DNA from: Acetobacteraceae bacterium
GTDB lineage: Bacteria > Pseudomonadota > Alphaproteobacteria > Acetobacterales > Acetobacteraceae
DNA length: 64,000 nt
Direction of reading: 5' to 3'
NCBI GenBank assembly: GCA_965276785.1
Contig: OZ255629.1
Span: 3,020,391-3,084,390, forward strand
The translations under genes and the position numbers were made by a program. This document shows positions 3,001 through 22,265 of the stretch, one piece after another; position 1 is the first letter of the stretch, and each line of letters opens with the position of its first letter. Below the pieces are notes generated by a model. It worked only from the letters and a program-made list of their open reading frames with translations. It ran no database searches and was not told the origin of the DNA.

Positions 3001-3373
3001 GGAGGCCGGGTTCTCCGAGACTGCGCTGCGTTCCGCCTGGCGGGAGGCCAAGCAGGCGGACGTCGCGGCCAAGCTGATCGGCTTCGTGCGCCAGGCGGCG
3101 CTCGGCGATGCGCTGGAGCCCTGGGCCGTCCGCGTGCAGCGCGCCGTTGAGGCCGTCATCAAGCGCGCGAGCCTCACGCCCCAGCAGCAACAATGGCTGA
3201 GGCGCATCGGCACGCAGGTGGCCGAGATTGGCGTGGCCGACCCGGCGGCGCTCGACCAAGGGCAGTTTCGCGAGGCGGCGGGCGGCTTCACCCGGCTGGA
3301 CCGCGTGTTCGGCGGCAGGTTGGCCGGATTGCTGGGCGACATCAACGAGGCGGCGTGGAAGGATACGGCATGA
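2..3373 (+). CDS. hsdR: Type I restriction enzyme R subunit (HsdR), 5'-truncated by the window edge. It has an N-terminal DUF4145-like/coiled-coil extension, a PD-(D/E)xK nuclease, an SF2 helicase and an EcoEI-R-like C-terminal region.
   Basis: The frame is open to nt 2 (LAERYFPDDPITCLMKLRQFGE). Motifs read in ORF 44..3373: ADYVLF...VVEAKR (nuclease), LLLAMATGTGKT (motif I), VDECHRGY (motif II), GLTATP (motif III), QMIGRATR (motif VI). hsdM and hsdS follow directly. Confidence 0.92.
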   Translation: MAERYFPDDPITCLMKLRQFGELLAQQVAARAGVLVAVDEPQSDLLGRLRRDTAYSRDVIDLFHDLRRTGNEAVHQHRGTHATALAGLKVARQLAVWFHRTFGDRTFKPGPFQPPRPPIDPTVQLRDELERLQSERLASVSVAEAAAAAAARQADDAQRALRTAEERAAAEAEARAVWEALATETESRLLALREELARVQAAAVAQPATLQLLATAANEAAQAIDLDEQATRSLIDGRLRARGWEADTPALRHAAGARPVAGRNRAIAEWPTATGPADYVLFVGLLCVGVVEAKRGSRNVSAAIDQAGRYSQGYLPEPGVLLPAGGPWLAQTGSIDEPPYRVPFLFATNGRAYLKQLEAQSGIWHRDARDPTNRRRALTDWPTPDGLRAMLDVDRVGASAALTTLPFDFAFGLRDYQMRGIQAVEAALADDDRRALLLAMATGTGKTALAVALLYRLLHTRRFRRVCFVVDRTALGDQAKDAFTTTRIVSARTFADIFGLKVLGDAAPEPDTKVHICTIQGLVKRVLFAATPEDVPPVDQYDLMLVDECHRGYTLDREMSDAELGFRSEADYVSKYRRVIEHFDAVRIGLTATPALHTTEIFGRPIFTYGLREAVIDGWLVDQEPPIRIETVLSRDGIHFPKGADLPQLDPLTGTIDLTTAPDDLGFEVESFNRRVVTAEFTRVVCEQLAEHIDPADPGKTLVFAASDAHADMVVGALGAAMEARHGKQDEALIRKITGSVDKPGTMIRRFRNDPTPRIAVTVDLLTTGIDVPRIVNLAFLRRVSSRILYDQMIGRATRLCQEIGGPGIDKESFRVFDAVRQSEAIGDLTEMKPVVVNPSLSFTQLLEEMARVTDPEQRALVRDQLLVRLRRRVARLSPQAAEQFAVAAGETPAETLARVRTADPADLATWVAARPGLGRVLDWQPDAGRPVPLAVSFHPDAHVATTIGYGAAGRPEDYLEAFGAFLRANENGLAALSLVLRRPRDLTQADLRALALALQEAGFSETALRSAWREAKQADVAAKLIGFVRQAALGDALEPWAVRVQRAVEAVIKRASLTPQQQQWLRRIGTQVAEIGVADPAALDQGQFREAAGGFTRLDRVFGGRLAGLLGDINEAAWKDTA

Positions 3374-3383
3374 GGGAGTGGGC

Positions 3384-4868
3384 ATGAGCGAATCACGAGC
3401 GGTTGTCGGGGTGACCCGGGACATCGTCCAGAAGCTGTGGCGCCTATGCGACATCCTCCGCGACGACGGCATCACCTACCAGGCCTACGTCACCGAGCTG
3501 ACCCACCTGCTGTTCCTCAAGATGCTGGCCGAGACGCAGCGCGAGGCGACCCTGCCGGCAGACTCGCGCTGGGCCAGCCTGACCAGCCGCCAGGGCGAGG
3601 CGCTGCTGATGCATTACCGCGCGCTGCTGCTGCGCCTCGGCACCGAGGGCGCCGGCACCGTCCGCACCATCTTCACCGACGCCCAGACCAGCCTACGCAA
3701 GCCGACCAACCTGCACGAGCTGGTCATGCAGATCGACCGGTTGGACTGGTATTCGGCCAAGGCGGAGGGCCTGGGCGACCTCTACGAGGGCTTGCTGGAG
3801 AAGAACGCTGGCGAGAAGAAGTCCGGCGCCGGGCAGTATTTCACGCCGCGCCCGCTGATCGACTGCATGGTCCGCCTGCTGCAGCCGCAGCCGGGCGAGG
3901 TGGTGCAGGACCCGGCCGCCGGTACCGGCGGCTTCCTGGTCGCCGCCGACCGCGCCATCAAGGACCGCACCGACGACCTGTTCGCGCTCAAGACCGAGGC
4001 CGAGCGCCGCTTCCAGCGCGAGGAGGCGTTCCGCGGGCTGGAGCTGGTGCCTGACACGCACCGGCTGCTGCTGATGAACCTGATGCTGCACGGCATCGGC
4101 GGTGACCTGGTGCGCGGCGGCGACGCCATGGGGCCGGACGGCGAGGCGCTGGGCCCAGCCGACCTGATCCTGACCAACCCGCCCTTCGGCACCAAGAAGG
4201 GCGGCGGCCGCCCCGCGCGGCCGGATTTCACCATCACCGCCGACACCAGCAACAAGCAGCTCGCTTTCGTGGAGCACGTGGTCCGCGCACTTCGTCCCGG
4301 TGGACGCGCTGGCATCGTCGTGCCGGATAACGTGCTGTTCGCCGACGGTGCCGGGCGGGAGCTGCGCCGCTGGCTGATGGACGTGGCCGACCTGCACACC
4401 ATCCTGCGTCTGCCCACCGGTATCTTCTACGCCCAGGGTGTCAAGACGAACGTGCTGTTCCTGCGCCGCGGCCCTGCCCGAGCGGCCAAGGCCAACACGC
4501 CGGCGGTGTGGGTCTACGACATGCGCGCCGGCCAGCCCGCCTACGGCAGGACGCGCCCGTTGCGAGCCGACGACTTCGCCGCATTCGAGACCTCCTACGG
4601 CGACGATCCGAACGGCACCGCTGCGCGCGAGGACCAGGGCGCCGAAGGCCGCTTCCGCCGCTTCACCCGCGCCGAGATCGAGGCCCGCGGTGACAACCTC
4701 GACATCGCCTGGCTTCGCGGCAGCGACGAGGCCGGCGAGGATGCGCTGGAGGAGCCGGAGGATATCCTGGAGGCAATGCGAATACACCTGGCGCGGGCGC
4801 TGGCGGAGGTGGACGCGCTGGCTGCGGAGTTCGTTGACGTGCCCGCGTTAAACGCGGCTGCAGAATGA
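3384..4868 (+). CDS. hsdM: Type I R-M N6-adenine DNA methyltransferase subunit (HsdM)
   Basis: ATG at 3384 lies 11 nt after the hsdR stop. The N-terminus (IVQKLWRLCDILRDDGITYQAYVTELTHLLFLKML) is HsdM-like, with an AdoMet motif VQDPAAGTGGFLV and catalytic LTNPPFG. Confidence 0.93.
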   Translation: MSESRAVVGVTRDIVQKLWRLCDILRDDGITYQAYVTELTHLLFLKMLAETQREATLPADSRWASLTSRQGEALLMHYRALLLRLGTEGAGTVRTIFTDAQTSLRKPTNLHELVMQIDRLDWYSAKAEGLGDLYEGLLEKNAGEKKSGAGQYFTPRPLIDCMVRLLQPQPGEVVQDPAAGTGGFLVAADRAIKDRTDDLFALKTEAERRFQREEAFRGLELVPDTHRLLLMNLMLHGIGGDLVRGGDAMGPDGEALGPADLILTNPPFGTKKGGGRPARPDFTITADTSNKQLAFVEHVVRALRPGGRAGIVVPDNVLFADGAGRELRRWLMDVADLHTILRLPTGIFYAQGVKTNVLFLRRGPARAAKANTPAVWVYDMRAGQPAYGRTRPLRADDFAAFETSYGDDPNGTAAREDQGAEGRFRRFTRAEIEARGDNLDIAWLRGSDEAGEDALEEPEDILEAMRIHLARALAEVDALAAEFVDVPALNAAAE

Positions 4869-6172
4869 GTGATCGCCTTCCGGCAGGCTGGTCCAAGCCG
4901 TGTCTCTCAGACATCGCGGAACTTCAACTTGGCAAGATGCTCGACCGGGCGAAGAACTTCACCGGCCAATCGATGCCGTATCTTCGGAACGTCAATATCC
5001 GATGGGGCTCGATCGAGACGGGTGATCTGTACAACATGCGGTTCACAGATGCGGAGGCGACGCGCTTCTCCGTTCGCGACGGTGACGTTTTAGTCTGTGA
5101 GGGAGGAGAGCCGGGGCGTTGCGCGATTTGGCAAGGAGGCCCCACCAGCCTGAAGTTCCAGAAGGCCATCCACCGCATCCGTCCAAGCGGGCGCGTCCTT
5201 TCCGGATGGATTGCATTGTTCCTCCGGCATGAGGCCCTGCATGACCGGCTAGCTGGCCACTTCACCGGAACAACGATCAAGCATCTACCAGCTCAAGCGC
5301 TGGCAGCTATCCGTCTGCCAGTCCCACCCCTGGCCGAGCAACGCCGGATCGTGGCGCGGATCGAGGCGCTGTCCGCCCGTACCCGCCGCGCCCGCGCCGA
5401 CCTCGAACGCATCGCGCCGCTGTGCCGCCGGCACCGTGACCGTACCCTGGCCAACGCATTCGACATCGGCAAGTCCACTCTCGTTGCAGAGTTGGCCTCG
5501 GCAGTCTTCGATGGTCCATTCGGCTCCAATCTCAAGTCGGATGACTACACCGCCAGTGGAACTCGAGTTGTTCGTCTAGAGAACATTGGCCACCTCCGCT
5601 TCATTGGTGACAAGGAGACCTTCATCACGGACGAGAAGGCCGACGGTCTCCGCCGACATCATCTCCACCCCGACGATGTTCTGTTCTCATCCTTCATAGA
5701 CAAGGAGGTTCGGGTATGCCTGTTCCCTCCTGGTCAGCCAACGAATGCAATCAACAAGGCCGACTGCTTCTGCGTCCGCGTTGATCCCAAGCGCGCCGAC
5801 CCGCGTTATGTCGCACTTCGCCTCGCCTCTCCGGTGACCTATGACGACATGCGGGATGCCGTCCACGGCGCGACGAGACCGCGGATCGGCATCACCGACC
5901 TGAAGCAATACGTCATCAACGCGCCGTCAGTCGCCGAACAGACGTCCATAGCGGACCGGGTCGAACGGCAGCACGGCATGTCCAACACCATCCATCGGGA
6001 GGCCACCCGTGCCCTCGCCCTCCTCGACCGCCTCGAACAGAGCATCCTCGCTCGCGCCTTCCGCGGTGAACTCGTGCCAGTTCACCTATCGGACACTGTG
6101 CCGGACGCCGCGCCGGTAAGTGCGTCGCCGACATCGGTCAGTCCGCGACGATTACAACGCGTCTCTGCTTAG
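4865..6172 (+). CDS. hsdS: Type I R-M specificity subunit (HsdS) with two target-recognition domains
   Basis: ATGA start/stop overlap with hsdM. N-terminus LPAGWSKPCLSDIAELQLGKMLD. The conserved spacer helices LPVPPLAEQRRIVARIEAL and APSVAEQTSIADRVE...LEQSILARAFRGELV are typical of HsdS. Confidence 0.9.
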   Translation: MSDRLPAGWSKPCLSDIAELQLGKMLDRAKNFTGQSMPYLRNVNIRWGSIETGDLYNMRFTDAEATRFSVRDGDVLVCEGGEPGRCAIWQGGPTSLKFQKAIHRIRPSGRVLSGWIALFLRHEALHDRLAGHFTGTTIKHLPAQALAAIRLPVPPLAEQRRIVARIEALSARTRRARADLERIAPLCRRHRDRTLANAFDIGKSTLVAELASAVFDGPFGSNLKSDDYTASGTRVVRLENIGHLRFIGDKETFITDEKADGLRRHHLHPDDVLFSSFIDKEVRVCLFPPGQPTNAINKADCFCVRVDPKRADPRYVALRLASPVTYDDMRDAVHGATRPRIGITDLKQYVINAPSVAEQTSIADRVERQHGMSNTIHREATRALALLDRLEQSILARAFRGELVPVHLSDTVPDAAPVSASPTSVSPRRLQRVSA

Positions 6173-6220
6173 CCGGGCGAGAACGATAGGGATCGCGCCT
6201 GTCCTGAGCTAGCAAGACAC

Positions 6221-7846
6221 ATGCTCAACCCTGATCCGAATGTGGAGTCGAACGCTCACGAGCGTTCCCGCGCCGGCCTCCAACATTGGCCCGACGAGAT
6301 CTGCTCCGACTATCCCGTTGCTTATGTCAGAATGACGACGCTGCGCGTCGATGACGATACCCACCTTCTGTTCGGCTGCGTGGAGTTGCTGCCCCGGGAG
6401 ATCGCGCCCCTGCCAAGCCACCAGGCGCCACGCCTGAACCTCCCGCGCGGCGCGACTGCGATGAGCAGCCTCACCGTGCTCGCCACGGACGCTGCGCTGC
6501 GCTGGTACGAGAGCGTTCTCGCCGGTGCTATCAGTATTCCAGGGACGACTGGACCGGCCATCGTCCGCACGGTCCGCCTCGCCCCGGAGCCGCGCCTTGG
6601 CGATCTGGTCGTAGCCAGGACGCCCACGGTTCCGGTGGCCTGGACCTCAGGACCGAGGATGCACCGCATGGTTCCCATGGAGCCACTGCCCGACGGGATG
6701 GCGGCATTGCTGACGCCGACATCAGGCAGTTCGGCGCTTCGCGACTGGATGCTCGAACATTGCTTCATTGACCTTGCCGCGCACCCGGACTGCGCAGGCG
6801 GGCTCGTTCTGCTCGCGGCCAATCCGATCATCCGGCATGTGTCGGAGTATCCCTTGCGCAAGCTCCCGGATGGCCGGGAGGTCCTCGGGATCAGGCTGGT
6901 TCCGCGTCTCGGCTGCTCCCTTGAGACAGTGAAGGTGCGCCTCTCCGAAATACGGCCTGATGGCATTGGACTTGCGCAAGAAGTCGCGCTTGACGCGTTT
7001 GGCGAAGCCGAGGTGACCCTGTCGCAAGAAGCCCTGGACACCGCGCTGGAGGTGAGTTGTTCCCGTCGCGGGTTGCTGCATGTGGCTCCGCACACGGGGT
7101 TTCTTCGATCGATCGGCTTCGAGATGAGACCGGTGCGCGCCACGATGTCCGTGGAGGTGCCCGCGAGGACCAAGACGCAGGCTGGAAGCCGCTACGATGT
7201 TCCGGTTGCGGACAGCCGGCTGAACGGTGCGGGCCAGATAGGCAGGCCCGCCGAGACCGGAGCCGCTTCCAGGCTCGCGTCGCTGCTCGCGGCTCGAGCC
7301 CAGCCGGTAGGCAGGATCGCGGAGCAGGTCGTGTTCCGCGATGATCGACCATTCGCCGTTACGTTCGTCCGCGGGCTTGTCGCGCACGCCCATTCGCGCG
7401 CGCTCTTCGTCGACCCCTACTTCAGCTTCGATGACATACGCGATTTTGCGCTATCAGCCTGGTCGGGATCGTGCATCGTGAGCGTTCTGACGAGCGTGCG
7501 CGTCGGTTGGACCAAGCGGGTCCAACACTTGGCCACCGAGCAGCCGCACGGCGACATGATGATTGCGGACCTCGAGCAGATCAATCGCATCCGGAATGGC
7601 AGCGGACTGTCTTCAGTCGAGGTCGGCATCATGGGAGAGCCGGGCATCCACGATCGGTTCTTGGTGGTGGACGACGCGGTCTGGCACTTCGGTGATTCAT
7701 TCAGATCACTGGGTGGCGCATTGTCCATGGCCTCCAAGGTCCGTGATATGCCGTCGCTCTTGCCCATGCTGCTCGACGCCCAGGCCAGGGCGACAGCGTT
7801 CGCCGAATATTGGGCGCGGGCGAACCATGGGAGTTCCGCAGCTTGA
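6221..7846 (+). CDS. Hypothetical protein (541 aa) with a C-terminal PLD-fold-like module carrying an HDR motif. First gene of the uncharacterised operon (ORF A).
   Basis: Long ORF with G/C-rich third positions, starting 49 nt after the hsdS stop. C-terminal ALFVDPYFSFDDI ... GIHDRFLVVDDAVWHFGDSFRSLG (HDR codons at 7649-7657). The start is uncertain; alternative ATGs are at 6332 and 6461. Confidence 0.6.
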   Translation: MLNPDPNVESNAHERSRAGLQHWPDEICSDYPVAYVRMTTLRVDDDTHLLFGCVELLPREIAPLPSHQAPRLNLPRGATAMSSLTVLATDAALRWYESVLAGAISIPGTTGPAIVRTVRLAPEPRLGDLVVARTPTVPVAWTSGPRMHRMVPMEPLPDGMAALLTPTSGSSALRDWMLEHCFIDLAAHPDCAGGLVLLAANPIIRHVSEYPLRKLPDGREVLGIRLVPRLGCSLETVKVRLSEIRPDGIGLAQEVALDAFGEAEVTLSQEALDTALEVSCSRRGLLHVAPHTGFLRSIGFEMRPVRATMSVEVPARTKTQAGSRYDVPVADSRLNGAGQIGRPAETGAASRLASLLAARAQPVGRIAEQVVFRDDRPFAVTFVRGLVAHAHSRALFVDPYFSFDDIRDFALSAWSGSCIVSVLTSVRVGWTKRVQHLATEQPHGDMMIADLEQINRIRNGSGLSSVEVGIMGEPGIHDRFLVVDDAVWHFGDSFRSLGGALSMASKVRDMPSLLPMLLDAQARATAFAEYWARANHGSSAA

Positions 7847-7989
7847 CCGCGGACGCGTCCGCCCTCGGCTCGATCGAGGCCTGGTTCATGCGGCACGAAG
7901 TCGACCTCGCGCTCGCGTCTTGCGAGGACAGGGAGATGGCCCCTGAGCAGCGGGCGAGCTGGACGCCCTGGTGCGGACCGCCAGCCTAA
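7843..7989 (+). CDS. Possible 48-codon ORF bridging ORF A and ORF B. It is either a separate small gene or the displaced 5' end of ORF B.
   Basis: It is not in the ORF track because it is under 60 aa. My own translation is LTADASALGSIEAWFMRHEVDLALASCEDREMAPEQRASWTPWCGPPA. Third positions are almost all G/C. The TTG overlaps the ORF A stop (TTGA), and an internal ATG sits at 7888. Its end overlaps the ORF B GTG by 19 nt. Confidence 0.3.
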   Translation: MTADASALGSIEAWFMRHEVDLALASCEDREMAPEQRASWTPWCGPPA

Positions 7990-9707
7990 GTGCGAATCGC
8001 CCCCAGCCCGACGCGCACGGCTCTGGTCCGTGGCCAGGCCACGCCGACGATGGAGCCGACACGCTCGTGGGCCGTGCCTTGGGCGCCTGCTTCGCGAGGG
8101 CGCCGGGCACGCGTTTGCTCGACGCCGCGGCTGGCATCCTGCGCTCGGATGCCGGCTGGCGCGCGTTCGCCGCCACCGCTGCGGATGAGGTGAGGTCGGA
8201 CTCGGCAAGGTTGGCCGCGTTGGAGACGTACCTGGAAGGGTTGGTCCACGCGTTCACCTGGGCGCCCCGTAGGATCGTCTATGCGCACCGGGACAACATG
8301 TGCGCGCTCGTGGAGCGGTTCCGTCAGCAGCCCCGGCTGGACGATGTTTGGCCGAGCCCACACTTCAGGATCATGCTCGTCAAGCATGAGCCGGCGTTCG
8401 ATGTCTTGAGGTTGAGCGACCCGGCCGGGTTCCTGAGAATGCTCGATCGTTTCCCGCATCCCGAACCCAGCCGGCACATCCTCGCATATTCGTCGGATCG
8501 CTTGAATATGGCCGAGCTGCTGGGCCTGCTGGAGCTCGCCAGACCATGCTTCGACGGTGGCGCTTGGCTGCCCTGGATCAAGGCTCCCGTCCTGGTCCTC
8601 GCGGCGGTCGAGCAGAACCTGGCGGCACTCGCTGATGGGGGAGACGATGATGGCTCCATTCCGTCGGAGGCGTTCGCGTCTGCCACTGCGAAGGCTGTGG
8701 GCGCGGTCTTGGAGAGGGCCGATGGGAATAATCTCGGCCACGGCTGGCTACAGCGATTGATGCATCGGGGTGCCTTCCGTGCTGGCCGTGGGGCGGCGAA
8801 CGACCGCCCGAGCATTTGGCTGCAGCACTTGATGCTCGAACTCGCCTCGGCATTGTCAACGAGGCAAGACGCCCTCCAGTGGATCCGGGCCGAACATGAA
8901 GTCTGGCGACGCGACCGCGCCGTGGCGGCCATCTCGGCGGCGGGATTGGGCGAGGTAAGCAGCCCGGCCGCGGCGGCGACTCTCATCCGGGAGGTCCTCG
9001 GTCTCGGTCTCCATACCACGGGCCAGGAGGATGGCTTTGGCGCTTCGTCGAATGCGGAGCGACGGCTCATGGCAGCAGTGGTTGGCCGCCATCCCGACCC
9101 CGCCGCATGGTTCGAGGAGCTGTGGCGCTCCATGGCGCCAATCCGGGACCGAGCCCGGCACACGACGACGTCGGCAGGCGGGCACGCCGGTGACGCCACC
9201 GTCATAGCGGTGACGTGGTTCATGTTCGGCTTGGACGCCGTCGACCCTCGCGCGCCGGCATACCGCGCACTCTGGAGGGCACTGCTTCGAGCGGTGCGGG
9301 AATGCGCCGTCGCACAGACCTCACCGCTCGCTCAACCTGCGTGGCGGGCACGCTACCAACTCCTGGCCGCGCATCTCGCACATCGGCTTGGGGATGCTGC
9401 GGACGAAGCGGCGGCCGACGACCTTCGGGAATTGCTTGAACCGTTGCTATACCTTGACATGACCCTGGCCGAGGTCGTGCACGTGCTGTTCGACGCGAGG
9501 GTCGCGCCGAGCGCAATCGCGATCGCTGCCGGTCAGACCGAACGTCTCGTGGGATTGTTGCGGCGCCTTGAGGTAGAACAGGCCTGGCGGGAAGAGAGGC
9601 AGCAGGAACAACTCGGCCGTCAGACCCGGTTCTCAGAGACGATCGCGCGGATGGCCGACGCTATCGAGGGTGCAGCCTCGCCACAGCATGACCCGGACGG
9701 AGGATGA
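7971..9707 (+). CDS. Hypothetical alpha-helical protein (578 aa), no recognisable motif (ORF B)
   Basis: Long ORF co-directional with ORF A and ORF C. GTG at 7971 is the first canonical start after an in-frame stop at 7944-7946. The composition is Leu/Ala/Arg-rich. Confidence 0.6.
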   Translation: MRTASLSANRPQPDAHGSGPWPGHADDGADTLVGRALGACFARAPGTRLLDAAAGILRSDAGWRAFAATAADEVRSDSARLAALETYLEGLVHAFTWAPRRIVYAHRDNMCALVERFRQQPRLDDVWPSPHFRIMLVKHEPAFDVLRLSDPAGFLRMLDRFPHPEPSRHILAYSSDRLNMAELLGLLELARPCFDGGAWLPWIKAPVLVLAAVEQNLAALADGGDDDGSIPSEAFASATAKAVGAVLERADGNNLGHGWLQRLMHRGAFRAGRGAANDRPSIWLQHLMLELASALSTRQDALQWIRAEHEVWRRDRAVAAISAAGLGEVSSPAAAATLIREVLGLGLHTTGQEDGFGASSNAERRLMAAVVGRHPDPAAWFEELWRSMAPIRDRARHTTTSAGGHAGDATVIAVTWFMFGLDAVDPRAPAYRALWRALLRAVRECAVAQTSPLAQPAWRARYQLLAAHLAHRLGDAADEAAADDLRELLEPLLYLDMTLAEVVHVLFDARVAPSAIAIAAGQTERLVGLLRRLEVEQAWREERQQEQLGRQTRFSETIARMADAIEGAASPQHDPDGG

Positions 9708-12700
9708 CGCGACGCCGATGAATTCCGACCCGGCGTTGCCCCCCCGTAGAGGCGCGAGCAGCCCGGCCTCAACCGGGCCGGCCGGGAGCCTGTTCGAGGC
9801 CCAGGTTGCCGCCAGCTACATGCTCGCCATGCTCGCCGGCGCTCCACCCCGCGGCCTGCCGAACGCGCTGGTAGAGAGCGTGCAGGTCCAAGCGGCACCC
9901 GAGGGCTTTCCGCTAGACGATGTCGTTGTGCACGCCCGCGACGCGGCCGGTAGCCCGGCGATACTGGAGATTCAGGTGAAGCGAACGGTGAGCTTCACAC
10001 ACTCCGACCCTGTCTTCGCAGACGTTGTGGGCCAGGCCGTCTCCGCCCGCGGAGACGGCGGTGAACAGGGCCATCATGAGTTGGCGGTGGCGCTGGCACG
10101 GTCGGCCCGAACTGCCTTGGGTCCATGCCATGATGTGCTGATGTGGGCGAGGAACACGACGGCGACCCAACTATTCGCCCGGCTCGCGCTGCGGGGCGTT
10201 GCCAATGAGCCTATGCGGACATTCGCGGAGACGTTCAGGTCCAACCTCGCCAAGGCGGGAGTACCCAGCGACGACGCCACGACCTGGGGGCTATTGCGGA
10301 GGTTCCAGATCCTCCCGTTCGACTTCGACGTGGCTGGCTCCGAATGGGAGCAACTCATGTTGGATCGGGCGCGCCGCTCACTGCACGACGAGGAGGCGCA
10401 TCTTGCCGGGTCGCTATGGTCGAGACTGGTCACCCACGCGCTCGCGCTGGCCACCACTGGCGGTTCAGTTACGACTGGAGAACTCAGGCAGGAGCTGCAT
10501 GAGTTCCGGTTCGCGGGCGAACGGCGCTACGCCGCCGCCCGCCGAGCCGTCGCCGAAGCAGCGCGGCACGCGTATGCTGACATCGACGATGACGTCGGCG
10601 GGGTGATCCTATCCAGGTCCGCCCACCTGGCCGGCCTGAGAGCGTCGATGGACCGCGGGCGCTATGTCGAGGTTCGAGGCGATGCCGGCGTCGGGAAGTC
10701 GGCGCTTCTGCGACACCTGGCTGCCCAATTATCGGCAGAGGCGCGGGTGATATTCCTCTCGCCGGGACGGACTACCCCGGGCGGTTGGCCCGCCATGCGC
10801 GCACAGATCGGGTTCTCCGACGGCGCGGTAGACCTGCTGTCTGACCTCACGGCCTGCGGCGGCGCCGTGCTCTTCCTGGACAACCTCGACAGGTTCAGCC
10901 CGGGCGAACAGACCACTGTCCGGGACCTCGTCCGCGAGGCGTCGACCGTGCCGGGCCTCTTCGTCGTCGCAAGCGCGAGGCGGGAGTTCGGCCTCGAGAC
11001 GCCTTCGTTCATCCCGGACGACGCGGTGGCACGGCTCGGGCGCGCGCCGCCGCTCGTCGTCGACGAGCTCGATGATCAGGACCTCGCCGAGTTGCGGGAC
11101 GGCAGTCCAGAGCTCCGAGGCCTGCTCGACGATCGGCACCCGGCATTGGCTATTACACGCAACCTTTTTCGGCTGGGCAGGCTGGCGAGGAGGCGCTCGC
11201 CAACGGGCGATCCGACGCTACCGCGGACCGAGGCGGAGATGGCCCGGCAGTGGTGGGACACGGGCGGCGACGGTTCCGACGACGGCCCTCTGAGGAGGAA
11301 CCGTCGCCGCCTGCTGCGCCGCCTCGCGATTGAGGTAATCGAAGGGGTCGACCCGCACGACGGGTCGGCCGAACCGTCGCATGTCGTGGATGCTCTTGTG
11401 GCAAGCCAGACGCTACGCGAGCCCAGTCACGACGTTATTGAGTTCCGGCATGACGTGCTGCGGCAGTGGGCGATCGCCAATGTGCTCATGCAGGAGCCGC
11501 AACTGGTCGGTCGTCTGGCGTTGGATCGGGCCCCATCAGCGATCGAGGCGCGGGGTCTCGAGCTGGCCGGCATCGGCAGCCTGGCGCCCGGCGACGGGTC
11601 GACGATCTTCGCCACGCTGCTGGCGGCGGTAAGCCGCGACTGCGCGCATCCAGCATGGCGACGTTCGGTGCTGCTCGCGCCGATGCGTTCAGAGAACCCC
11701 ACGGCGGCGCTCTTGGGAGCGGCGGACCTGCTCGCTGTAGATCGCGCCGCCATACTCAGGGAGTTGGTGCGCGTCGTGAGGGCCGTGGAGGTGACCAGCG
11801 CATCCGACCTGCTTCGTTCCGCGGGTATCGAACCCACTGCCGCCGCATCCGGCGTTGACGTGCCGGTGCTCAACCGCTGGCTACCGCTGGTCGAATACCT
11901 CGTCCAATTCGATGCGCTGCCTGCCGCGACGCTGCTTGAAGTCGTGCCATTCCTTGCGACCTGGTCAGCCTGCACGAGGGGTGCCGACCCCCTCAGTCCC
12001 GCGATCACACGCCGCATGTACGAGTGGCTCGACAGGTTCGAGGCGGGCACGCTCTTCGTCGGTGACGCAGGGTCGGCGGTGGGAGAGTGGCATCGGCGGC
12101 GTGCCCTGGGCAGCGAGATCAGATCCGCGTTCCTGCGTTTTAGCGACACGAGCCCGGACCTCGCCATCGCGTATATCGAGCGTCTTGCGGCCGGCCCCGC
12201 CGACGGACCGATCGTCAAGAGCGTGCTGACAGACAGCGGAAAGCTTGCGTTCGCGGCACCGGACCGGTTGGCCGCCCTCGCTGCACGCTCGATGGTGCCA
12301 CCAAGGGAACCGTCGGGCCGCACGGGACTCCGAGTGGCTCGGACATTCGGTAGCTGGGATTACGAGCTTTATCCTCCATCGCCCCGACAGGGCCCGTTTC
12401 TAAGCTTGTTGGAAGCTGCACCTGAGCACGGGTTGCGGCTGGTGCGCAGGATGGTGGACCATGCAATCCAGGACGACGACCCTGACGGCCAGCCGAACGC
12501 TATCGGCACAGTGCTGATGTTCGACGCCGGCCCGCGGTCATTCGACCATCCGAGATCGTACCGTTTGGCGCGGGAAGCCTCAGGCGGCCCGCTCGCCTCT
12601 GCGCTCATGGCCCTTGAGCAGTGGGGACATCTCCGCCTGGAGCGGAACGATGATGCCCGCGACGTCATTGCGGACGTGCTCGGAGACGGCGTGGCGCCCG

Positions 12701-14787
12701 CGGCCTACCTGCTCGTCGCAGTCGACCTGATCCTCTCACACTGGCCGTCCACCGCGGCGACGTCGGTCCCGTTTCTCGGCTGTCCGACCCTCCTCGCATG
12801 GGACCTCGAGCGGGCGGTCGTCGATGACGCTTCATCGGCCCGGGTGCCCGGATTGGAGGACATGAACCGCAGCGAGACCGATGCCGCGGATGACCTCGCG
12901 GCAAGGCCGTCGAGGAGGACCCGCCTTGACTACAGGCTCGACACCCTAGCGATAGAGGGTCCTGCTGTCGTTCGCGAAGAAGTCGAGCGCCGGCTGCGAT
13001 CCGCTGCGGAGCTGCTTGGGTCGCCGGAGCAAGATGCCACCCTTTCCTGCGCACCGATGATGGCGATGCACGCCCTGAACCGCATTGATCCCGCGAACTG
13101 GCGCAAGATGCATTTGCAGGACGGACGGGTAGGTTGGTCCTACGTCTCACCACAAGCAGAAGAGGAGCATTTCCGGCGGCTGCAGGACATCATGGCCGCC
13201 CGCAACGATGACGACCCACTGCTCTACTTGCCGATATCAGCGGCGCTCGACACCCATCCGGCCAAGCCAGGCGAATTGTCGGCGGCGTGCCTCCGATGGG
13301 CGTTTGGCAAGCTGCCCGGTGAAGAATCGCAGGCGGACCCGTCGCAGATGCGCAATGTCGCAATCGTAGGCGCAGCAATGCTGGTGGTCCGGCACGGAGA
13401 TCAAGGCACGATACTGTCCGCAGTCTCGTGGGCGAGGCAGGTGTTCGACTCGGCCGTCTTGATGCCCGACGATCAAGTCCATCGGACGCGGGCAGGCCTG
13501 GCGTACAACCCCGGCGGTATTGCATTCGCCGGGCGCGTCATGCTTCTTCGCGGTGGAGCTGCTGAGTGCGATGTTGAAGCGATACTGCGGCAGGCGGCCA
13601 GCGGCAACCCGGCCGGTGCCCGTGGTCTCGCGAAGACGGCGGTCGAGCTCGCCACCGCGGACGTGCGGCTCGTCAAGTCTGTCCTGCGCCTTGCCCTGGG
13701 CAGTTGTTGGACCAGTGCACGGGGCTCGTCCTCGAGGCGAGGTCGATTGGGCATGCGGTCCAACGAGGCGATCGCAAAGGCGGTCGGCTTGGAACTGAGT
13801 TGGTTGCGGAGCAATGGCGTCGAGCCACTCTGGCCCGGCTTCCCCATACGTGGTGCAGGTGGAAGTTCTCGAGGGGGAGCAGCTGCAACCCGCGCGGGCT
13901 TCGTCGATCAGCAGGCAGCGGCCCTGTGGCTCGATGCGATCCGCGAATTGTTCGACGCGGTAGTCCATCCATGGATGCGGGACTTGGCCGAGGCCTATGC
14001 CCCTTGGACATGGGAGGCGAACGGACAAGGCAGCGAGGATGAGGATTGCGGCGACCGCCCTGACGAGTGGAACGACGTTTTTCTCGAACTACTCGGACGC
14101 CTCGGGCCGGCGCTGCAGGCGCCTGACATGGACAGGTTGGCGCTGGAACCGCTCGTGGAACTGCCCGACAGGTCATTCCTGTGCGCCGTCCCGTCATTCC
14201 TCTACGGCGTCCACTACGCCCATTTCGGGGATGGCGGGCTCGCGGCCGCCGAGGCGGCACGGATCCGCGTCGCAGTGGCGCAACGCCTTGCCAAGTCGTC
14301 CGGTTGGCGCCGCATGGCGCGCGATCTGTCCGATGGTGTCGAGCACACGCTGGGGCCGGCGGTCGCAGCCCTCTTCTTCGCGCACCAGGGACCGCTTCAG
14401 CCCATCCAGACCTATCTCAACCCGGCGGGCATCGCGCGGCTCGACCCATTCCTGCCGCTGCTCATTGAGCTCGCGTCAGAGGCGCCCTGCCTCTACGTCG
14501 CGCGCCTGCTCCTGCAGTTGCTGTCTGTCCATGCCGAACCCCGCCATATCGCCGGGTTGCTGCGAGTCTCCCGGATATGGATCGAGAACCAGCCTCCGGA
14601 AGCTGCATTCTGGTTGGACTACGGAGTTGGAGGTTCGTTCTGCCGCTACATCCGCGATGCGCTCGCTGGGCCAGACGTAGACGCTGTCGTAACGGATACG
14701 ATCCGACGAGAACTGCAGGGGCAAGTTGCGGATCTGGTCCGGTTCGGGGTGTCCGAGGCTAGCCGGCTCGAGAAGGAACTGGCGTAG
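9688..14787 (+). CDS. Giant (~1,700 aa) putative nuclease-NTPase (ORF C). It has an N-terminal Mrr/Cap4-like PD-(D/E)xK module, a NACHT/STAND-like P-loop and a ~1,250-aa helical C-terminal region.
   Basis: PLDDVVVHARDAAGSPAILEIQVKR (9916-9981) fits a D...(E/Q)xK nuclease signature. Walker A GDAGVGKS is at 10678-10701 and Walker B-like VLFLDNLDRF at ~10870-10893. The start is ambiguous: ATG 9688 overlaps the ORF B stop by 20 nt, ATG 9718 lies 10 nt after it, and the track start is GTG 9670. Confidence 0.8.
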   Translation: MTRTEDDATPMNSDPALPPRRGASSPASTGPAGSLFEAQVAASYMLAMLAGAPPRGLPNALVESVQVQAAPEGFPLDDVVVHARDAAGSPAILEIQVKRTVSFTHSDPVFADVVGQAVSARGDGGEQGHHELAVALARSARTALGPCHDVLMWARNTTATQLFARLALRGVANEPMRTFAETFRSNLAKAGVPSDDATTWGLLRRFQILPFDFDVAGSEWEQLMLDRARRSLHDEEAHLAGSLWSRLVTHALALATTGGSVTTGELRQELHEFRFAGERRYAAARRAVAEAARHAYADIDDDVGGVILSRSAHLAGLRASMDRGRYVEVRGDAGVGKSALLRHLAAQLSAEARVIFLSPGRTTPGGWPAMRAQIGFSDGAVDLLSDLTACGGAVLFLDNLDRFSPGEQTTVRDLVREASTVPGLFVVASARREFGLETPSFIPDDAVARLGRAPPLVVDELDDQDLAELRDGSPELRGLLDDRHPALAITRNLFRLGRLARRRSPTGDPTLPRTEAEMARQWWDTGGDGSDDGPLRRNRRRLLRRLAIEVIEGVDPHDGSAEPSHVVDALVASQTLREPSHDVIEFRHDVLRQWAIANVLMQEPQLVGRLALDRAPSAIEARGLELAGIGSLAPGDGSTIFATLLAAVSRDCAHPAWRRSVLLAPMRSENPTAALLGAADLLAVDRAAILRELVRVVRAVEVTSASDLLRSAGIEPTAAASGVDVPVLNRWLPLVEYLVQFDALPAATLLEVVPFLATWSACTRGADPLSPAITRRMYEWLDRFEAGTLFVGDAGSAVGEWHRRRALGSEIRSAFLRFSDTSPDLAIAYIERLAAGPADGPIVKSVLTDSGKLAFAAPDRLAALAARSMVPPREPSGRTGLRVARTFGSWDYELYPPSPRQGPFLSLLEAAPEHGLRLVRRMVDHAIQDDDPDGQPNAIGTVLMFDAGPRSFDHPRSYRLAREASGGPLASALMALEQWGHLRLERNDDARDVIADVLGDGVAPAAYLLVAVDLILSHWPSTAATSVPFLGCPTLLAWDLERAVVDDASSARVPGLEDMNRSETDAADDLAARPSRRTRLDYRLDTLAIEGPAVVREEVERRLRSAAELLGSPEQDATLSCAPMMAMHALNRIDPANWRKMHLQDGRVGWSYVSPQAEEEHFRRLQDIMAARNDDDPLLYLPISAALDTHPAKPGELSAACLRWAFGKLPGEESQADPSQMRNVAIVGAAMLVVRHGDQGTILSAVSWARQVFDSAVLMPDDQVHRTRAGLAYNPGGIAFAGRVMLLRGGAAECDVEAILRQAASGNPAGARGLAKTAVELATADVRLVKSVLRLALGSCWTSARGSSSRRGRLGMRSNEAIAKAVGLELSWLRSNGVEPLWPGFPIRGAGGSSRGGAAATRAGFVDQQAAALWLDAIRELFDAVVHPWMRDLAEAYAPWTWEANGQGSEDEDCGDRPDEWNDVFLELLGRLGPALQAPDMDRLALEPLVELPDRSFLCAVPSFLYGVHYAHFGDGGLAAAEAARIRVAVAQRLAKSSGWRRMARDLSDGVEHTLGPAVAALFFAHQGPLQPIQTYLNPAGIARLDPFLPLLIELASEAPCLYVARLLLQLLSVHAEPRHIAGLLRVSRIWIENQPPEAAFWLDYGVGGSFCRYIRDALAGPDVDAVVTDTIRRELQGQVADLVRFGVSEASRLEKELA

Positions 14788-14834
14788 GAACCTCGCTCAT
14801 ACCGAAGTCGGTAGAGCCCTTACCGACGAGATCT

Positions 14835-15719
14835 TTAGGGGAGGCTCAATGTTCTGCTGCACGACCTCTCGACCCGGCCATTCTGCAGGGTATTCAGCTC
14901 GATGGTGTGCGCCCATCCGTCGTATCGGGCCCGCGTGCCCCATAGCGCTGGGTCCTTCCAGTCCGGCGCGCCCTCGCGAACGCCGCCATCGTTGATCGTC
15001 TCGGCGCAGAGCTTGCCGATGGAACGCGACATGACGAGCCTGCCACCCTCGACCACGCCCACCTTGGCCGGGCAGACCGCGTAATCCCGCGTCGACGCCG
15101 CGCTGTTCGGCCCGTCGTCGCAGGCGGTGGCGCCAAGTTGCGCGATCGACACGATGATGGTCCGCGGGCCGTCGGGGAACGAGACGGAGTAGGTCGGCAA
15201 CGTGCCGCCTTGGCCGTCCGGGGGATTGTCGATCTCGTTGCGCCACAGGGCGGCCTCGGCATCGGGGTTCCGCTCGGCCTTGGTATGATAGCGGAGCGTC
15301 AGGAACTGCCATCCGACCTGCGGGTGGCCGGGCGGGACCTCCGGGCCCCGGGGCTCGTGCGACGCCGGCGGAAACGACGCCACGGTCCCGGCAGCGGCAG
15401 TGGCATCGGCGCCGACGATGTGGCCACGGGACGCCATGCAGTCGGCGAAGACGGCATCATACGATGCTTGGATCTGGCTATTGTTGGCCGCGATCTGTTG
15501 CGGGGTCGCGCCGGGCCCGTTGAGCCTGTCCGCAACGGGCTGGAGCTGCCGGTCGGTCAGCCTCCCGCAGCTCGTCCGGTCGTCATCGAAGGCGGCCTGC
15601 GACTTACCCGGCCCCGGCTCCACGTGCACGGTCGGTTTGATGACCGCACACGACGCGGACATGAGCGCCAGCAGCAACGCAGCCGCGCGCGGCGCTCCCC
15701 CGCGGCAAGCGCGACGCAT
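14835..15719 (-). CDS. Probable exported protein or lipoprotein (294 aa)
   Basis: An internal ATG at 15719 in ORF 14835..16301 gives MRRACRGGAPRAAALLLALMSASCAVIK, a signal peptide ending in Cys. The sequence upstream in the same ORF is R/G-rich junk. Confidence 0.65.
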   Translation of the reverse strand: MRRACRGGAPRAAALLLALMSASCAVIKPTVHVEPGPGKSQAAFDDDRTSCGRLTDRQLQPVADRLNGPGATPQQIAANNSQIQASYDAVFADCMASRGHIVGADATAAAGTVASFPPASHEPRGPEVPPGHPQVGWQFLTLRYHTKAERNPDAEAALWRNEIDNPPDGQGGTLPTYSVSFPDGPRTIIVSIAQLGATACDDGPNSAASTRDYAVCPAKVGVVEGGRLVMSRSIGKLCAETINDGGVREGAPDWKDPALWGTRARYDGWAHTIELNTLQNGRVERSCSRTLSLP

Positions 15720-15775
15720 GCTCCCTCGCCTGGGGATTCCGTGATCGCCACCCGGAACATGCGTCGAGGACGCGT

Positions 15776-16339
15776 TCACTCCCCGCCCTGCCCCAGCCAC
15801 ACCAACTCCTCCGGCGGCGCTTCCTCCAACATCAGCAAGGTCAGCGACGCCACGAATACCGCATCGTGCTCGGCCTGCGATTGCCCGGGGTCGGACCCGG
15901 CCCGACCGATCTCGATTGCCATCCCCATCGCGGCCATCGCCATCGCGGCCACGGGCATCGATGTCCACAGCCGCTCGGCAGCGACCAGTGCGCAGATGAT
16001 GGGGGTGCCGCGCCTCACCTCGTCCGGCAACGTCGCCCGCGCATCCGGATGAGCGACGACGATCGCGTCTGGCGGCTGCGGCGCCCACACCGCCCGGTCG
16101 AGACGACCGCCGGCGATGAACGGCAGCGACGCCTCCATGCGGCCGGAGGCCCGGGCATCGTATCGCGCGGACATGGGCCGGCCCAGCCCCGAGCCGAAGA
16201 TCGGGTCCGTGCGCAGGTCGATCCGGCCCACGCTGCGGATCGAGCCGGCCAAGCGCCCGTCCAGCTCGAAGCTCATGACCCGCAACCTGGTCTTGGGCCA
16301 CAGGCCTCGCCGCACGCTCACGGCGGCGGTCTCAATCAC
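15776..16339 (-). CDS. Hypothetical protein (~187 aa)
   Basis: GTG at 16339 overlaps the stop of the upstream 751-aa gene (GTGATTGA). An alternative ATG is at 16276 (MSFELDGRL). Confidence 0.45.
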   Translation of the reverse strand: MIETAAVSVRRGLWPKTRLRVMSFELDGRLAGSIRSVGRIDLRTDPIFGSGLGRPMSARYDARASGRMEASLPFIAGGRLDRAVWAPQPPDAIVVAHPDARATLPDEVRRGTPIICALVAAERLWTSMPVAAMAMAAMGMAIEIGRAGSDPGQSQAEHDAVFVASLTLLMLEEAPPEELVWLGQGGE

Positions 16340-18587: not shown

Positions 18588-18841
18588 CCCGTGAGATCCG
18601 ATGACCCTGGTGCTCGATGACTGCGGGACGCCCGCGCGGATCGGCGCGGCCGGGAGGAGCGCATCCGCGCGGGAACGCGCCCCTCCGCCACACCTAGCCG
18701 CACCATACGGGACCTTTCCCCGCTGGACCGGACCCCGCCAAGCCTCGCCGGGTCCGGCTTGGTAGCGGCCATCGCACACCCGAGGCAACTCGCACGAGGC
18801 GCGGGTCGGAACGGCCGCCGATGGACCGGTCGCGAACGCCG

Positions 18842-22121: not shown

Positions 22122-22265
22122 AGTGCTCACACGTTGCGCACGCGAAGTTACCCGGCAGCGAGGCGCACGCCAACTTGAGACGACCAGGCTTGTGAACGGC
22201 AACCTCGAAGCGTCAGGGCATTGGTCATGAGGGCCCCTGGCTGCAGATCGGTCGGGAGTGCGGGT

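What the first reader, a model, noticed from the sequence alone, without database searches (positions are those of the whole stretch)
6221..14787. Uncharacterised three-to-four gene operon attached to the 3' end of a type I R-M locus: candidate novel defence system
ORF A (541 aa), a possible 48-codon ORF, ORF B (578 aa) and ORF C (~1,700 aa) follow hsdS on the same strand. The junctions are a 49-nt gap after hsdS, a TTGA overlap after ORF A, a 19-nt overlap into ORF B, and an ORF C start either overlapping the ORF B stop or 10 nt after it. This spacing suggests one transcription unit with translational coupling. Two of the products carry nuclease-like signatures, an HDR PLD-like motif in ORF A and a D...QxK motif in ORF C. 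ORF C also has a NACHT-like P-loop, and ORF B has no motif I recognise. I cannot match this gene set to any named defence system I know (Druantia, Zorya, Lamassu, Septu, Gabija, PARIS, Hachiman, BREX, DISARM and others). It sits in an integrase-bounded island next to R-M genes, which is the usual context for new systems.
Basis: partly seen in the sequence, partly recalled or inferred. Interest (0 to 1): 0.85.

Follow-up and report, generated by a model that had tools for sequence, protein, structure and literature searches.

The report
Two stacked defence modules, not one
The supposed new three-to-four-gene defence operon is two separable anti-phage modules joined end to end: a rare gene pair (a PLD-type nuclease and a helical partner, related to the recently described Juno protein) and a divergent Avs4-type sensor ATPase, so it is a modest new variant rather than a new kind of system.

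Summary
(1) The "48-codon ORF" is not a gene. It is the true 5' end of ORF B, displaced by a 1-nt deletion at ~7960. A second 1-nt deletion at ~9678 distorts the B/C junction. In relatives the layout is A-(TTGA)-B-(ATGA)-C. (2) ORF C is a divergent Avs4-like STAND NTPase: its sensor-only profile hits Avs4 (PDB 8dgf) at E=3e-7, and 15 of 20 family members hit the PADLOC Avs4 model. In 76 of 80 genome loci its homologues have neither A nor B nearby and sit in variable mobile-element and defence neighbourhoods. (3) ORF A carries the N-terminal domain of VPA1262/"Juno", including a PLD-nuclease fold with an invariant HxR(x)4D(x)6GxS motif. ORF B is an all-helical solenoid-like protein. A and B form a conserved pair in 14 loci, 11 of them without C. 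(4) The A-B-C cassette (6263-14787) recurs at ~87% identity in two other flanking contexts with sharp edges, and the R-M linkage is not conserved. Best reading: two independent defence modules fused into one co-transcribed cassette. An integrated three-gene system remains possible (~0.2). This is a new variant of known kinds, of moderate interest.

The parts
44..6172 (+). Type I R-M genes hsdR (44-3373), hsdM (3228 or a later start, to 4868) and hsdS (4865-6172). They are neighbours only and are not part of the cassette.
   Evidence: Pfam and PADLOC hits. Relatives of the cassette show no homology upstream of 6263.
6221..7846 (+). ORF A, 541 aa. It has an N-terminal alpha/beta region, tandem beta-sandwich domains and a C-terminal PLD-fold domain. 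It corresponds to the VPA1262 (Juno) N-terminal domain.
   Evidence: NCBIfam NF040700: 103.5 bits against a cutoff of 80. AF2 model pLDDT 84. Foldseek top hit NucT 6ehi, E 4e-5, target TM 0.61. Pfam PLDc_2 in 6 of 28 family members.
7649..7699 (+). PLD-type motif H477-D-R-F-L-V-V-D-D-A-V-W-H-F-G-D-S493, i.e. HxR(x)4D(x)6GxS, a variant of the HKD motif.
   Evidence: Invariant columns in the family alignment. Present in all 18 A-family proteins checked, down to 21% identity.
7843..7959 (+). The TTG start overlaps the ORF A stop (TTGA).
   Evidence: It matches the N-termini of full-length B homologues. Repairing the frame gives a 621-aa protein.
7958..7960 (+). Frameshift site 1: a 1-nt deletion (CC->C) relative to all close relatives.
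   Evidence: A near-identical copy (P0313) reads through the site.
7971..9707 (+). ORF B main body, listed mechanically as a 578-aa ORF. It is an all-alpha-helical, solenoid-like protein.
   Evidence: AF2 pLDDT 71, all helices. Only weak alpha-solenoid fold matches. 148 representatives in 1.84 billion proteins; nearly all near-complete ones are stand-alone, 590-700 aa.
9676..9678 (+). Frameshift site 2: a 1-nt deletion (CCC->CC) that moves the B stop from TGA 9689-9691 to 9705-9707.
9688..14787 (+). ORF C, about 1,699 aa from ATG 9688 (the ORF is open from GTG 9670; residue numbering below counts from 9670). It is an Avs4-like STAND NTPase.
   Evidence: The ATG overlaps the B stop as ATGA in relatives. 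Family of more than 766 proteins. PDB Avs4 hits. PADLOC Avs4 and PDC-M54A hits.
9916..9981 (+). Putative PD-(D/E)xK-type nuclease motif, D83-D84 ... E100-I-Q102-V-K104.
   Evidence: Invariant in 20 of 20 and 24 of 24 sequences. There is no Pfam or PDB sequence match for this domain, so the assignment rests on the motif only.
10678..10890 (+). NTPase core: Walker A GDAGVGKS (10678-10701) and Walker B LFLDNLD (10870-10890).
   Evidence: Invariant residues. Pfam AAA_16, nSTAND5 and NACHT hits, all below curated threshold.
11605..12859 (+). Region of the C-terminal sensor with detectable homology to the Avs4 sensor (residues ~646-789 and ~879-1064).
   Evidence: The sensor-only profile A9 hits 8dgf_A at E 3.1e-7 (Avs4 residues 522-672 and 759-952). 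Coordinates mapped.

Best explanation
The region holds two separable anti-phage modules that, in this lineage, have been fused into one tightly packed and probably co-transcribed cassette (6221-14787). This cassette happens to have landed next to a type I R-M locus inside an integrative island.

Module 1 is A+B. ORF A is a PLD-superfamily nuclease-type effector with one HxR(x)4D(x)6GxS half-site, so it must dimerise to form an active site. It sits behind beta-sandwich domains, and the whole protein is homologous to the N-terminal domain of the single-gene Juno (VPA1262) defence protein. ORF B is a ~620-aa alpha-helical solenoid-like protein, translationally coupled to A. The inference is that B is the sensor or regulator that controls A's dimerisation or activity.

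Module 2 is ORF C, a divergent Avs4-type STAND NTPase. By analogy with Avs4, its helical C-terminal sensor binds a conserved phage protein, ATP-dependent oligomerisation follows, and the N-terminal PD-(D/E)xK-like nuclease is activated to cut DNA and abort infection.

Shown here: the homologies, the fold of A, the separability of the modules, the cassette boundaries and the two frameshifts. Inferred: nuclease activity of A and of C's N-terminus, B's role as sensor, the phage trigger, and the defence phenotype. In this assembly ORF B carries two 1-nt deletions, so module 1 may be impaired here, or the assembly may be in error.
For: C is Avs4-like. The full-length profile hits Avs4 8dgf_A at E 3.8e-7 in three collinear segments. 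The sensor-only profile hits it alone at E 3.1e-7. 15 of 20 family members hit the PADLOC Avs4 model and 17 of 20 hit PDC-M54A. Walker A, Walker B and the D...ExQxK motif are invariant.

C is autonomous. 76 of 80 genome loci have no A or B relative. 127 immediate neighbours fall into 117 Pfam families with no recurrent partner, but include integrases, TrwC, AbiEii/AriA-like ATPases, REase_I, MADS components, LmuB and SoFic. L002 is flanked by toxin-antitoxin pairs.

A is related to Juno. NF040700 scores 103.5 bits against a cutoff of 80. Juno gave more than 100-fold protection against T4, two BASEL phages and lambda-vir.

A has a PLD fold. NucT match at E 4e-5; invariant motif; the three-gene variants carry a second stand-alone PLD half-site gene.

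A+B is a conserved pair without C: L003, L004/5, L086, L087, L088, L091, L092, L094, L095 and L096, with 4-8-nt overlaps in several loci.

Module boundary. A+B-only loci share 68-70% nucleotide identity from 6260/6282 to 9682/9692, which ends at the B/C junction.
Against: In every known instance of this particular C subfamily (window, L001, L006, L007, L015, and the contigs of P0005/P0006), C is preceded by A+B or B. In relatives the junctions are 4-nt overlaps. The cassette C is only 40-43% identical to all stand-alone homologues, which are 53-73% identical to one another. This fits co-evolution with A+B rather than recent stacking.

No experiment exists for the two-gene A+B form. B shows no detectable homology to anything characterised. 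C's N-terminal nuclease is supported only by a motif. Juno itself rests on one preprint.
Confidence: 0.58

Rival explanations
1. In this lineage A, B and C form one integrated three-component system. For example, the Avs4-like sensor C controls, or is controlled by, the PLD nuclease A and solenoid B, in the way some Avs proteins drive operon-encoded accessory effectors.
For: Ancestral 4-nt overlaps at both junctions (TTGA, ATGA). The cassette moves as a block with sharp edges at 87% identity in two other flanks (L001, L007); in L006 the downstream flank is shared with the window. The cassette C is a deep separate lineage, 40-43% identical to all others, and has been seen only with A+B. Avs proteins with operonic accessory effectors exist, for example Avs2-trypsin-MBL (abstract of bioRxiv 10.64898/2026.08.25.746987).
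Against: All instances are close relatives (C at least 78% identical), so this is one evolutionary event. C keeps its own complete effector-NTPase-sensor architecture with all invariant residues. A+B is complete and conserved without C in 11 loci, and C-type proteins have no A/B in 76 of 80 loci.
Confidence: 0.2
2. Only ORF C is functional here. ORF B, and with it the A+B module, is a decaying pseudogene in this genome.
For: The only two uncompensated 1-nt indels in the 8.5-kb cassette both fall in ORF B. If two errors were placed at random, the chance that both land in B is about 5% (my estimate, from B being ~1.9 kb of the 8.5 kb). The public annotation calls B as a truncated 546-aa CDS (P0121).
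Against: Both deletions shorten short C runs (CC->C, CCC->CC), a common type of assembly error. A near-identical copy (P0313) reads through site 1 but has its own frameshift elsewhere, which points to indel-prone assemblies. Apart from the two sites, B has no stops and keeps a coding GC pattern. The second deletion changes only the last few residues.
Confidence: 0.3
3. The A+B pair is not an anti-phage system. It could be another conflict or maintenance module, such as a toxin with a large immunity or regulator protein, or a plasmid/MGE addiction or DNA-processing function.
For: There is no experimental data for the two-gene form. Several A+B loci sit among metabolic or transport genes (L086, L092). 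B has no informative homology. The PLD fold also occurs in non-catalytic proteins such as TrmBL2 and FAM83.
Against: A is homologous, above the curated cutoff, to the domain that defines Juno, which protected E. coli from four phages. Many A+B loci are next to a SIR2-family giant protein, toxin-antitoxin pairs, IS elements, recombinases, a large DEAD/DEAH-box helicase-family gene and a DUF4011-helicase-MTES_1575 nuclease gene, or lie on conjugative plasmids. The catalytic-type residues are invariant.
Confidence: 0.15
4. One reading: a single, categorically new 3-4-gene defence system functionally attached to the type I R-M operon.
For: Same strand, short gaps, and no PADLOC system call.
Against: The fourth ORF is a frameshift artefact. 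C is Avs4-like. A is Juno-related. The modules are separable. Homology with relatives starts at 6263 and excludes hsdS.
Confidence: 0.03

Closest known systems
Avs4 (AVAST type 4; EcAvs4, PDB 8dgf)
   Same: A giant single polypeptide (1,587 aa against ~1,700 aa) with an N-terminal effector region, a central STAND P-loop NTPase and a long C-terminal sensor. There is detectable sequence homology in the NTPase and in two collinear sensor segments. The PADLOC Avs4 model hits 15 of 20 family members. Both are single-gene systems in variable islands.
   Different: It is very divergent. The window protein itself does not reach E<=0.01 against the PADLOC Avs4 model, and Pfam STAND models score below their thresholds. 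The N-terminal domain has no sequence match to solved nucleases, including that of Avs4. The trigger is unknown. In this lineage the gene is translationally coupled to two upstream genes.
PADLOC candidate PDC-M54A
   Same: It is the best PADLOC hit: E 1.5e-9 for the window protein over residues 38-619, 17 of 20 family members, best E 3e-14. The lengths are similar (1,621-1,657 aa).
   Different: The scores are weak and cover only the N-terminal third. PDC-M54 is an uncharacterised multi-gene candidate, and neither ORF A nor ORF B matched any PDC-M54 model. No paper in the library mentions it.
Juno / VPA1262 family (bioRxiv 10.64898/2026.08.01.741415)
   Same: ORF A matches the NCBIfam VPA1262 N-terminal domain model above its cutoff (residues 171-502, including the PLD motif). 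Both are found in mobile islands alongside other defence genes.
   Different: Juno is a single protein; the NCBIfam model of the family (NF040699) has 1,026 positions. ORF A is 541 aa and scores 11 bits against the full-length model's cutoff of 325. The second half is replaced by a separate ~620-aa gene (B). B shows no detectable similarity to the full-length VPA1262 model (0 of 75 B-family members) and is not found as the C-terminal half of a longer protein. The two-gene form has not been tested.
Single-HKD PLD-family nucleases (NucT, Nuc, BfiI type)
   Same: The C-terminal domain of A superposes on NucT (6ehi, target TM 0.61). It has one half-site motif per chain, which implies dimerisation. 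The three-gene variants supply a second half-site protein.
   Different: The motif has Arg in place of the canonical Lys (HxR rather than HxK) and GxS in place of GS. The domain is embedded behind ~370 aa of extra domains. Activity is untested. Non-catalytic PLD folds (TrmBL2, FAM83) score similarly.
PADLOC candidate PDC-S05
   Same: The C-terminal ~45 residues of ORF A, around the PLD motif, hit two PDC-S05 models (E 2e-8 and 2e-5).
   Different: PDC-S05 is a ~285-306-aa single-gene candidate. Only the motif region matches.

Membership tests
Avs (antiviral STAND) in general | Central STAND-type P-loop NTPase (definition from PMC11897194) | tested here: met
   Invariant Walker A GDAGVGKS and Walker B LFLDNLD. 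AAA_16 in 17 of 20 members, nSTAND5 in 15 of 20 and NACHT in 7 of 20, all below Pfam thresholds. P-loop segment aligned to Avs4.
Avs (antiviral STAND) in general | Extended C-terminal sensor made of superstructure-forming repeats | tested here: inconclusive
   There are ~1,150 conserved residues C-terminal to the NTPase, with homology to the Avs4 sensor.
Avs (antiviral STAND) in general | N-terminal cell-killing effector domain | tested here: inconclusive
   The D83/D84...E100xQ102xK104 motif is invariant, but the domain has no Pfam or PDB sequence match.
Avs4 specifically | Sensor homologous to the Avs4 sensor | tested here: met
   The sensor-only profile hits 8dgf_A as the only significant PDB match, E 3.1e-7, in two collinear segments.
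Avs4 specifically | Recognised by a curated Avs4 model | tested here: inconclusive
   PADLOC Avs4 PDLC02169 hits 15 of 20 family members (best E 5e-10), but not the window protein at E<=0.01. PADLOC's system-level rules could not be run.
Avs4 specifically | Activated by the phage portal protein; forms a tetramer; nuclease-dependent defence | not testable with these tools
   This needs co-expression and biochemistry. The literature basis is PMC11897194.
Juno / VPA1262 family | VPA1262 N-terminal domain (NCBIfam NF040700) | tested here: met
   ORF A scores 103.5 bits against a cutoff of 80, E 1.1e-29.
Juno / VPA1262 family | Full-length match to VPA1262_fam (NF040699, 1,026 positions) in one polypeptide | tested here: not met
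   ORF A scores 11.1 bits against a cutoff of 325. ORF B gets no hit. 0 of 75 B-family members hit the model. B-family proteins are stand-alone.
Juno / VPA1262 family | Confers phage resistance | not testable with these tools
   Shown only for two full-length Juno proteins in a preprint.
PLD (HKD) superfamily nucleases | PLD fold | tested here: met
   Foldseek match to NucT 6ehi, E 4e-5, target TM 0.61. Model pLDDT 84.
PLD (HKD) superfamily nucleases | Canonical HxK(x)4D(x)6GSxN motif | tested here: inconclusive
   A variant, HxR(x)4D(x)6GxS, is invariant in 18 of 18 proteins, with Lys replaced by Arg. Pfam PLDc_2 does not hit the window protein but does hit 6 of 28 relatives.
Type I R-M operon accessory genes | Conserved linkage of A-B-C to hsdRMS | tested here: not met
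   Nucleotide homology with L001 and L007 begins at 6263/6264. L001 has no R-M genes nearby.

The most novel reading that the evidence does not exclude
In this lineage a Juno-like PLD-nuclease/solenoid pair has been wired to an Avs4-like pattern-recognition ATPase to form one three-protein immune machine. For example, B or C senses the phage, and both the PLD nuclease and the Avs nuclease are released. This would be the first case of a Juno-type module acting as an accessory to a STAND sensor. Separately, the stand-alone A+B pair would be a previously undescribed two-gene ('split Juno-like') defence system.
Probability: 0.2. Interest if true: 0.65.

Novelty: new variant of a known kind. Interest (0 to 1): 0.4.

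Why it matters
If the A+B pair is confirmed as a defence system, it would extend the newly reported Juno family to a two-gene (and three-gene) architecture. It would also give Juno its first mechanistic handle: a dimerising PLD-type nuclease with an invariant HxR half-site, regulated by a separate helical protein. The ORF C family has hundreds of members across many phyla and almost all are annotated as hypothetical. It can now be read as a divergent Avs4 branch, which predicts a portal-like trigger that can be tested. The fused cassette is a natural test of whether stacked defence modules cooperate. None of this overturns current ideas; it refines annotation and offers tractable candidates.

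Tried and rejected
1. "ORF B is the split-off C-terminal half of Juno." Rejected at sequence level. There was no NCBIfam VPA1262_fam hit for ORF B or for 75 diverse B-family members. In the exhaustive profile search, nearly all near-complete B relatives are stand-alone 590-700-aa proteins matched at the same offset. A structural comparison was not possible because no full-length Juno sequence could be obtained: the plasmid collection holds only the N-domain form and the E. coli genomes gave no match.

2. The Azospirillum 1,314-aa ATPase upstream of A as a second, independent A+B/STAND association. Rejected: only the P-loop aligns (hhalign probability 6%).

3. Sequence-level identification of ORF C's N-terminal nuclease. 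No PDB or Pfam hit with a dedicated 24-sequence profile.

4. PDB sequence searches with the A and B profiles gave only chance-level hits.

5. The Foldseek search with the B model gave only generic alpha-solenoid matches (E >= 2.6e-3, query-normalised TM 0.10-0.33 among those listed).

6. The metagenome scan for B returned only two short loci. Viral contigs: none for A and one partial hit for C.

7. Promoter and terminator scans of 5900-15200 found nothing. This is uninformative in 68% GC DNA.

The organism is therefore unidentified; the nearest relatives are Caulobacteraceae and Acetobacteraceae MAGs.

9. No paper in the library mentions PDC-M54.
Full report
OBSERVATION. The window is ~68% GC. 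On the + strand lie hsdR (44-3373), hsdM (to 4868) and hsdS (4865-6172), confirmed by Pfam and PADLOC. After them come ORF A (6221-7846, 541 aa), a small ORF (7843-7989), ORF B (7971-9707, 578 aa) and ORF C (9670-14787, 1,705 aa from GTG). All three large ORFs have a coding-type GC1/GC2/GC3 pattern. Their GC3 is ~0.76, against 0.88-0.92 for hsdR and hsdM. The hsdS-A gap is 48 nt.

THE "48-CODON ORF" AND THE JUNCTIONS. A tblastn search of the small ORF against related loci placed it on the N-terminus of full-length B homologues. A DNA alignment shows that the window lacks one base at ~7958-7960 relative to L001, L007 and L003; L015 and L089 show the same. Restoring the base gives a 621-aa ORF B starting at the TTG that overlaps the ORF A stop (TTGA). 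Its N-terminus, MTADASALGSIEAWF..., matches homologues of 614-635 aa. A near-identical copy from another assembly (P0313) reads through the site. A second single-base deletion (CCC->CC at ~9676-9678) is seen relative to L001, L006 and L007. In those loci the B stop TGA overlaps the C start ATG (ATGA), which corresponds to the window's ATG at 9688. These are the only uncompensated 1-nt indels in the 8.5-kb cassette, and both lie in B. So there are three genes, with the ancestral layout A-(TTGA)-B-(ATGA)-C. In this assembly B is either damaged or mis-assembled, and the tools here cannot decide which.

ORF C. It belongs to a family of more than 766 proteins of ~1,700 aa, almost all unannotated, from many phyla. 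It is conserved end to end. The invariant residues include D83/D84, E100-x-Q102-x-K104, Walker A GDAGVGKS and Walker B LFLDNLD. Pfam gives only sub-threshold STAND/AAA hits. A full-length profile hits one PDB protein, Avs4 (8dgf_A), at E 3.8e-7 in three collinear segments. A profile of the region C-terminal to the NTPase alone again hits only Avs4, at E 3.1e-7, in Avs4 residues 522-672 and 759-952. Against PADLOC, 15 of 20 members hit the Avs4 model and 17 of 20 hit the candidate PDC-M54A. The N-terminal ~300 aa has no PDB or Pfam match, so its nuclease nature rests on the motif only. Avs proteins are defined by an N-terminal effector, a central NTPase and an extended C-terminal sensor. Avs4 is activated by phage portal proteins and forms tetramers that switch on the nuclease (PMC11897194). 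At least 90 Avs families are now recognised (PMC13581612). ORF C is therefore best read as a divergent Avs4-branch STAND protein.

ORF A. NCBIfam NF040700 (VPA1262 N-terminal domain) matches residues 171-502 at 103.5 bits (cutoff 80). The full-length VPA1262 model does not match (11 bits against a cutoff of 325). [quoted passage not shown] The AF2 model (pLDDT 84) has an N-terminal alpha/beta region, beta-sandwich domains and a C-terminal alpha/beta domain. The best structural match for the C-terminal domain is the PLD-family nuclease NucT (E 4e-5, target TM 0.61), followed by other PLD-like folds. PLDc_2 hits 6 of 28 relatives. The motif HDR[FL]xxxD(x)6GxS is present in all 18 proteins checked, down to 21% identity. 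It is a Lys-to-Arg variant of the HKD signature; the comparison with the canonical motif is from my own knowledge of the superfamily.

ORF B. It has no Pfam, PADLOC, NCBIfam or PDB sequence match. The model is all-helical (pLDDT 71) with only generic alpha-solenoid fold matches. An exhaustive profile search of 1.84 billion representatives finds 148 relatives. Nearly all near-complete ones are stand-alone proteins of 590-700 aa. None of 75 diverse members hits the full-length VPA1262 model.

ARE A, B AND C ONE SYSTEM? The A-to-B link is strong. In 14 distinct loci with an A-family gene and downstream sequence, a B-family gene is the next or next-but-one gene. These loci are the window, L001, L003, L004/5, L007, L086-L089, L091, L092 and L094-L096, and they reach down to ~21-29% identity in A. 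They include plasmids of Rhizobium, Bradyrhizobium, Methylorubrum, Azospirillum, Burkholderia and Klebsiella. A further locus without DNA fits by gene size. In Klebsiella, Burkholderia and Azospirillum a small extra gene lies between A and B. In Klebsiella and Burkholderia this gene is a stand-alone PLD domain carrying the same motif; the Azospirillum gene is homologous to the Burkholderia one. That fits an active site built from two half-sites.

The link to C is not general. Eleven of those 14 A+B loci have no C. Of 80 genome loci with C homologues, only the three near-identical ones (L006, L007, L015) carry A or B. 65 of the stand-alone loci have at least 3.7 kb of upstream sequence. The neighbours of stand-alone C genes are highly variable (117 Pfam families among 127 neighbours). 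They include integrases, relaxases and many PADLOC families, which is what one expects of a single-gene system in defence or mobile islands.

Nucleotide homology places the module boundary at the B/C junction: A+B-only loci align to 6260/6282-9682/9692. It also defines a sharp A-B-C cassette, 6263-14787, shared at ~87% with L001 and L007, where no hsd homology is found.

Against simple stacking, the cassette C is a deep lineage. It is 40-43% identical to stand-alone homologues that are 53-73% identical to one another, and it is known only with A+B. I therefore give 0.58 to "two autonomous modules fused into one cassette" and 0.2 to "one integrated three-gene system in this clade".

CONTEXT. 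The island also holds a DUF7380/DUF4209 protein and a 2,037-aa DUF4011-SF1 helicase-MTES_1575 nuclease protein. Further along are an SRAP peptidase, a Prim-Pol gene and a tyrosine integrase at 44283-45617(-), with housekeeping genes beyond ~46 kb. There is no tRNA gene in the window.

MECHANISM (inferred). For C: recognition of a conserved phage protein by the Avs4-like sensor, ATP-dependent oligomerisation, activation of the N-terminal nuclease and abortive infection. For A+B: A dimerises to complete a PLD-type active site and cleaves nucleic acid, and B, a large helical scaffold translationally coupled to A, senses infection or restrains A. None of these activities was or could be tested here.

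VERDICT. The interpretation as a single novel system attached to R-M is not supported. What remains is a divergent Avs4-like gene (a new member of a known kind) and an untested two-gene relative of Juno (a new variant), fused in one mobile cassette. Interest is moderate.

Noticed in passing
window 29492-35605 (+); L003 18527-21908: A 2,037-aa protein with DUF4011, SF1 helicase (AAA_11/AAA_12), MTES_1575 REase and DUF3320 domains lies in the same island. A gene with the same architecture lies near the A+B-only pair in L003.
   Followed up: no
window 20154-22409 (-): A 751-aa protein with DUF7380 (E 1.6e-37) and a weak DUF4209 match. It may be another conflict-system gene in the island.
   Followed up: no
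window 14835-16301 (-) and 16332-18851 (-): Two large ORFs (488 and 839 aa) convergent with ORF C have no Pfam, PADLOC or NCBIfam hit. The first has an unusual GC2 of 0.62. The region 14856-16678 is shared at 93% with L006, where ~5.6 kb is inserted between C and this flank.
   Followed up: partly
L088 8214-8855; L096 7518-8201; L095 7539-8021: Three-gene variants of the A+B module carry a small (160-227 aa) middle gene. In Klebsiella and Burkholderia it is a stand-alone PLD-like domain with the same HDRFxxxD..WxFG motif; the Azospirillum gene is homologous to the Burkholderia one. This looks like a second half-site supplied in trans.
   Followed up: partly
L095 1955-5899: In the Azospirillum plasmid a 1,314-aa ATP-binding protein with an SMC/Rad50-like Walker A (GQNGAGKSS) sits 33 nt upstream of the A homologue. 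It is not related to ORF C. L003 also has an AAA_23/AAA_27 ATPase plus a Metallophos gene nearby.
   Followed up: partly
window 35683-36546 (-); L094 4978-5718: An SOS-response-associated peptidase (SRAP) gene lies in the window's island. Another lies directly upstream of the A+B pair on the Bradyrhizobium plasmid.
   Followed up: no
window 37485-39683 (-) and 38813-40681 (-): Two long same-strand ORFs overlap by ~870 nt; the second carries a Prim-Pol domain. This could be another frameshift in this assembly or a spurious high-GC ORF.
   Followed up: no
window 4865-6172 (+): hsdS has GC3 of 0.70, much lower than hsdR (0.92) and hsdM (0.88) and closer to the A-B-C cassette (0.76). This suggests the specificity subunit was exchanged or acquired separately.
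   Followed up: no
L059 3910-5559 (-): A weak A-like (PLD-type) hit (E 1e-8) lies ~4.4 kb upstream, on the opposite strand, of a stand-alone ORF C homologue in Terracidiphilus gabretensis. No B-family gene is present.
   Followed up: no
P0313 (ENA contig of 10,926 nt): This near-identical copy of ORF B reads through frameshift site 1, but its last ~40 residues diverge from the window's B. That indicates a different frameshift near its 3' end, so indels in this gene differ between assemblies.
   Followed up: partly
L001 15194-17221: In the L001 copy of the cassette, an IS5-like transposase (DUF4096, DDE_Tnp_1) follows ORF C directly. This may be relevant to how the cassette moves.
   Followed up: no
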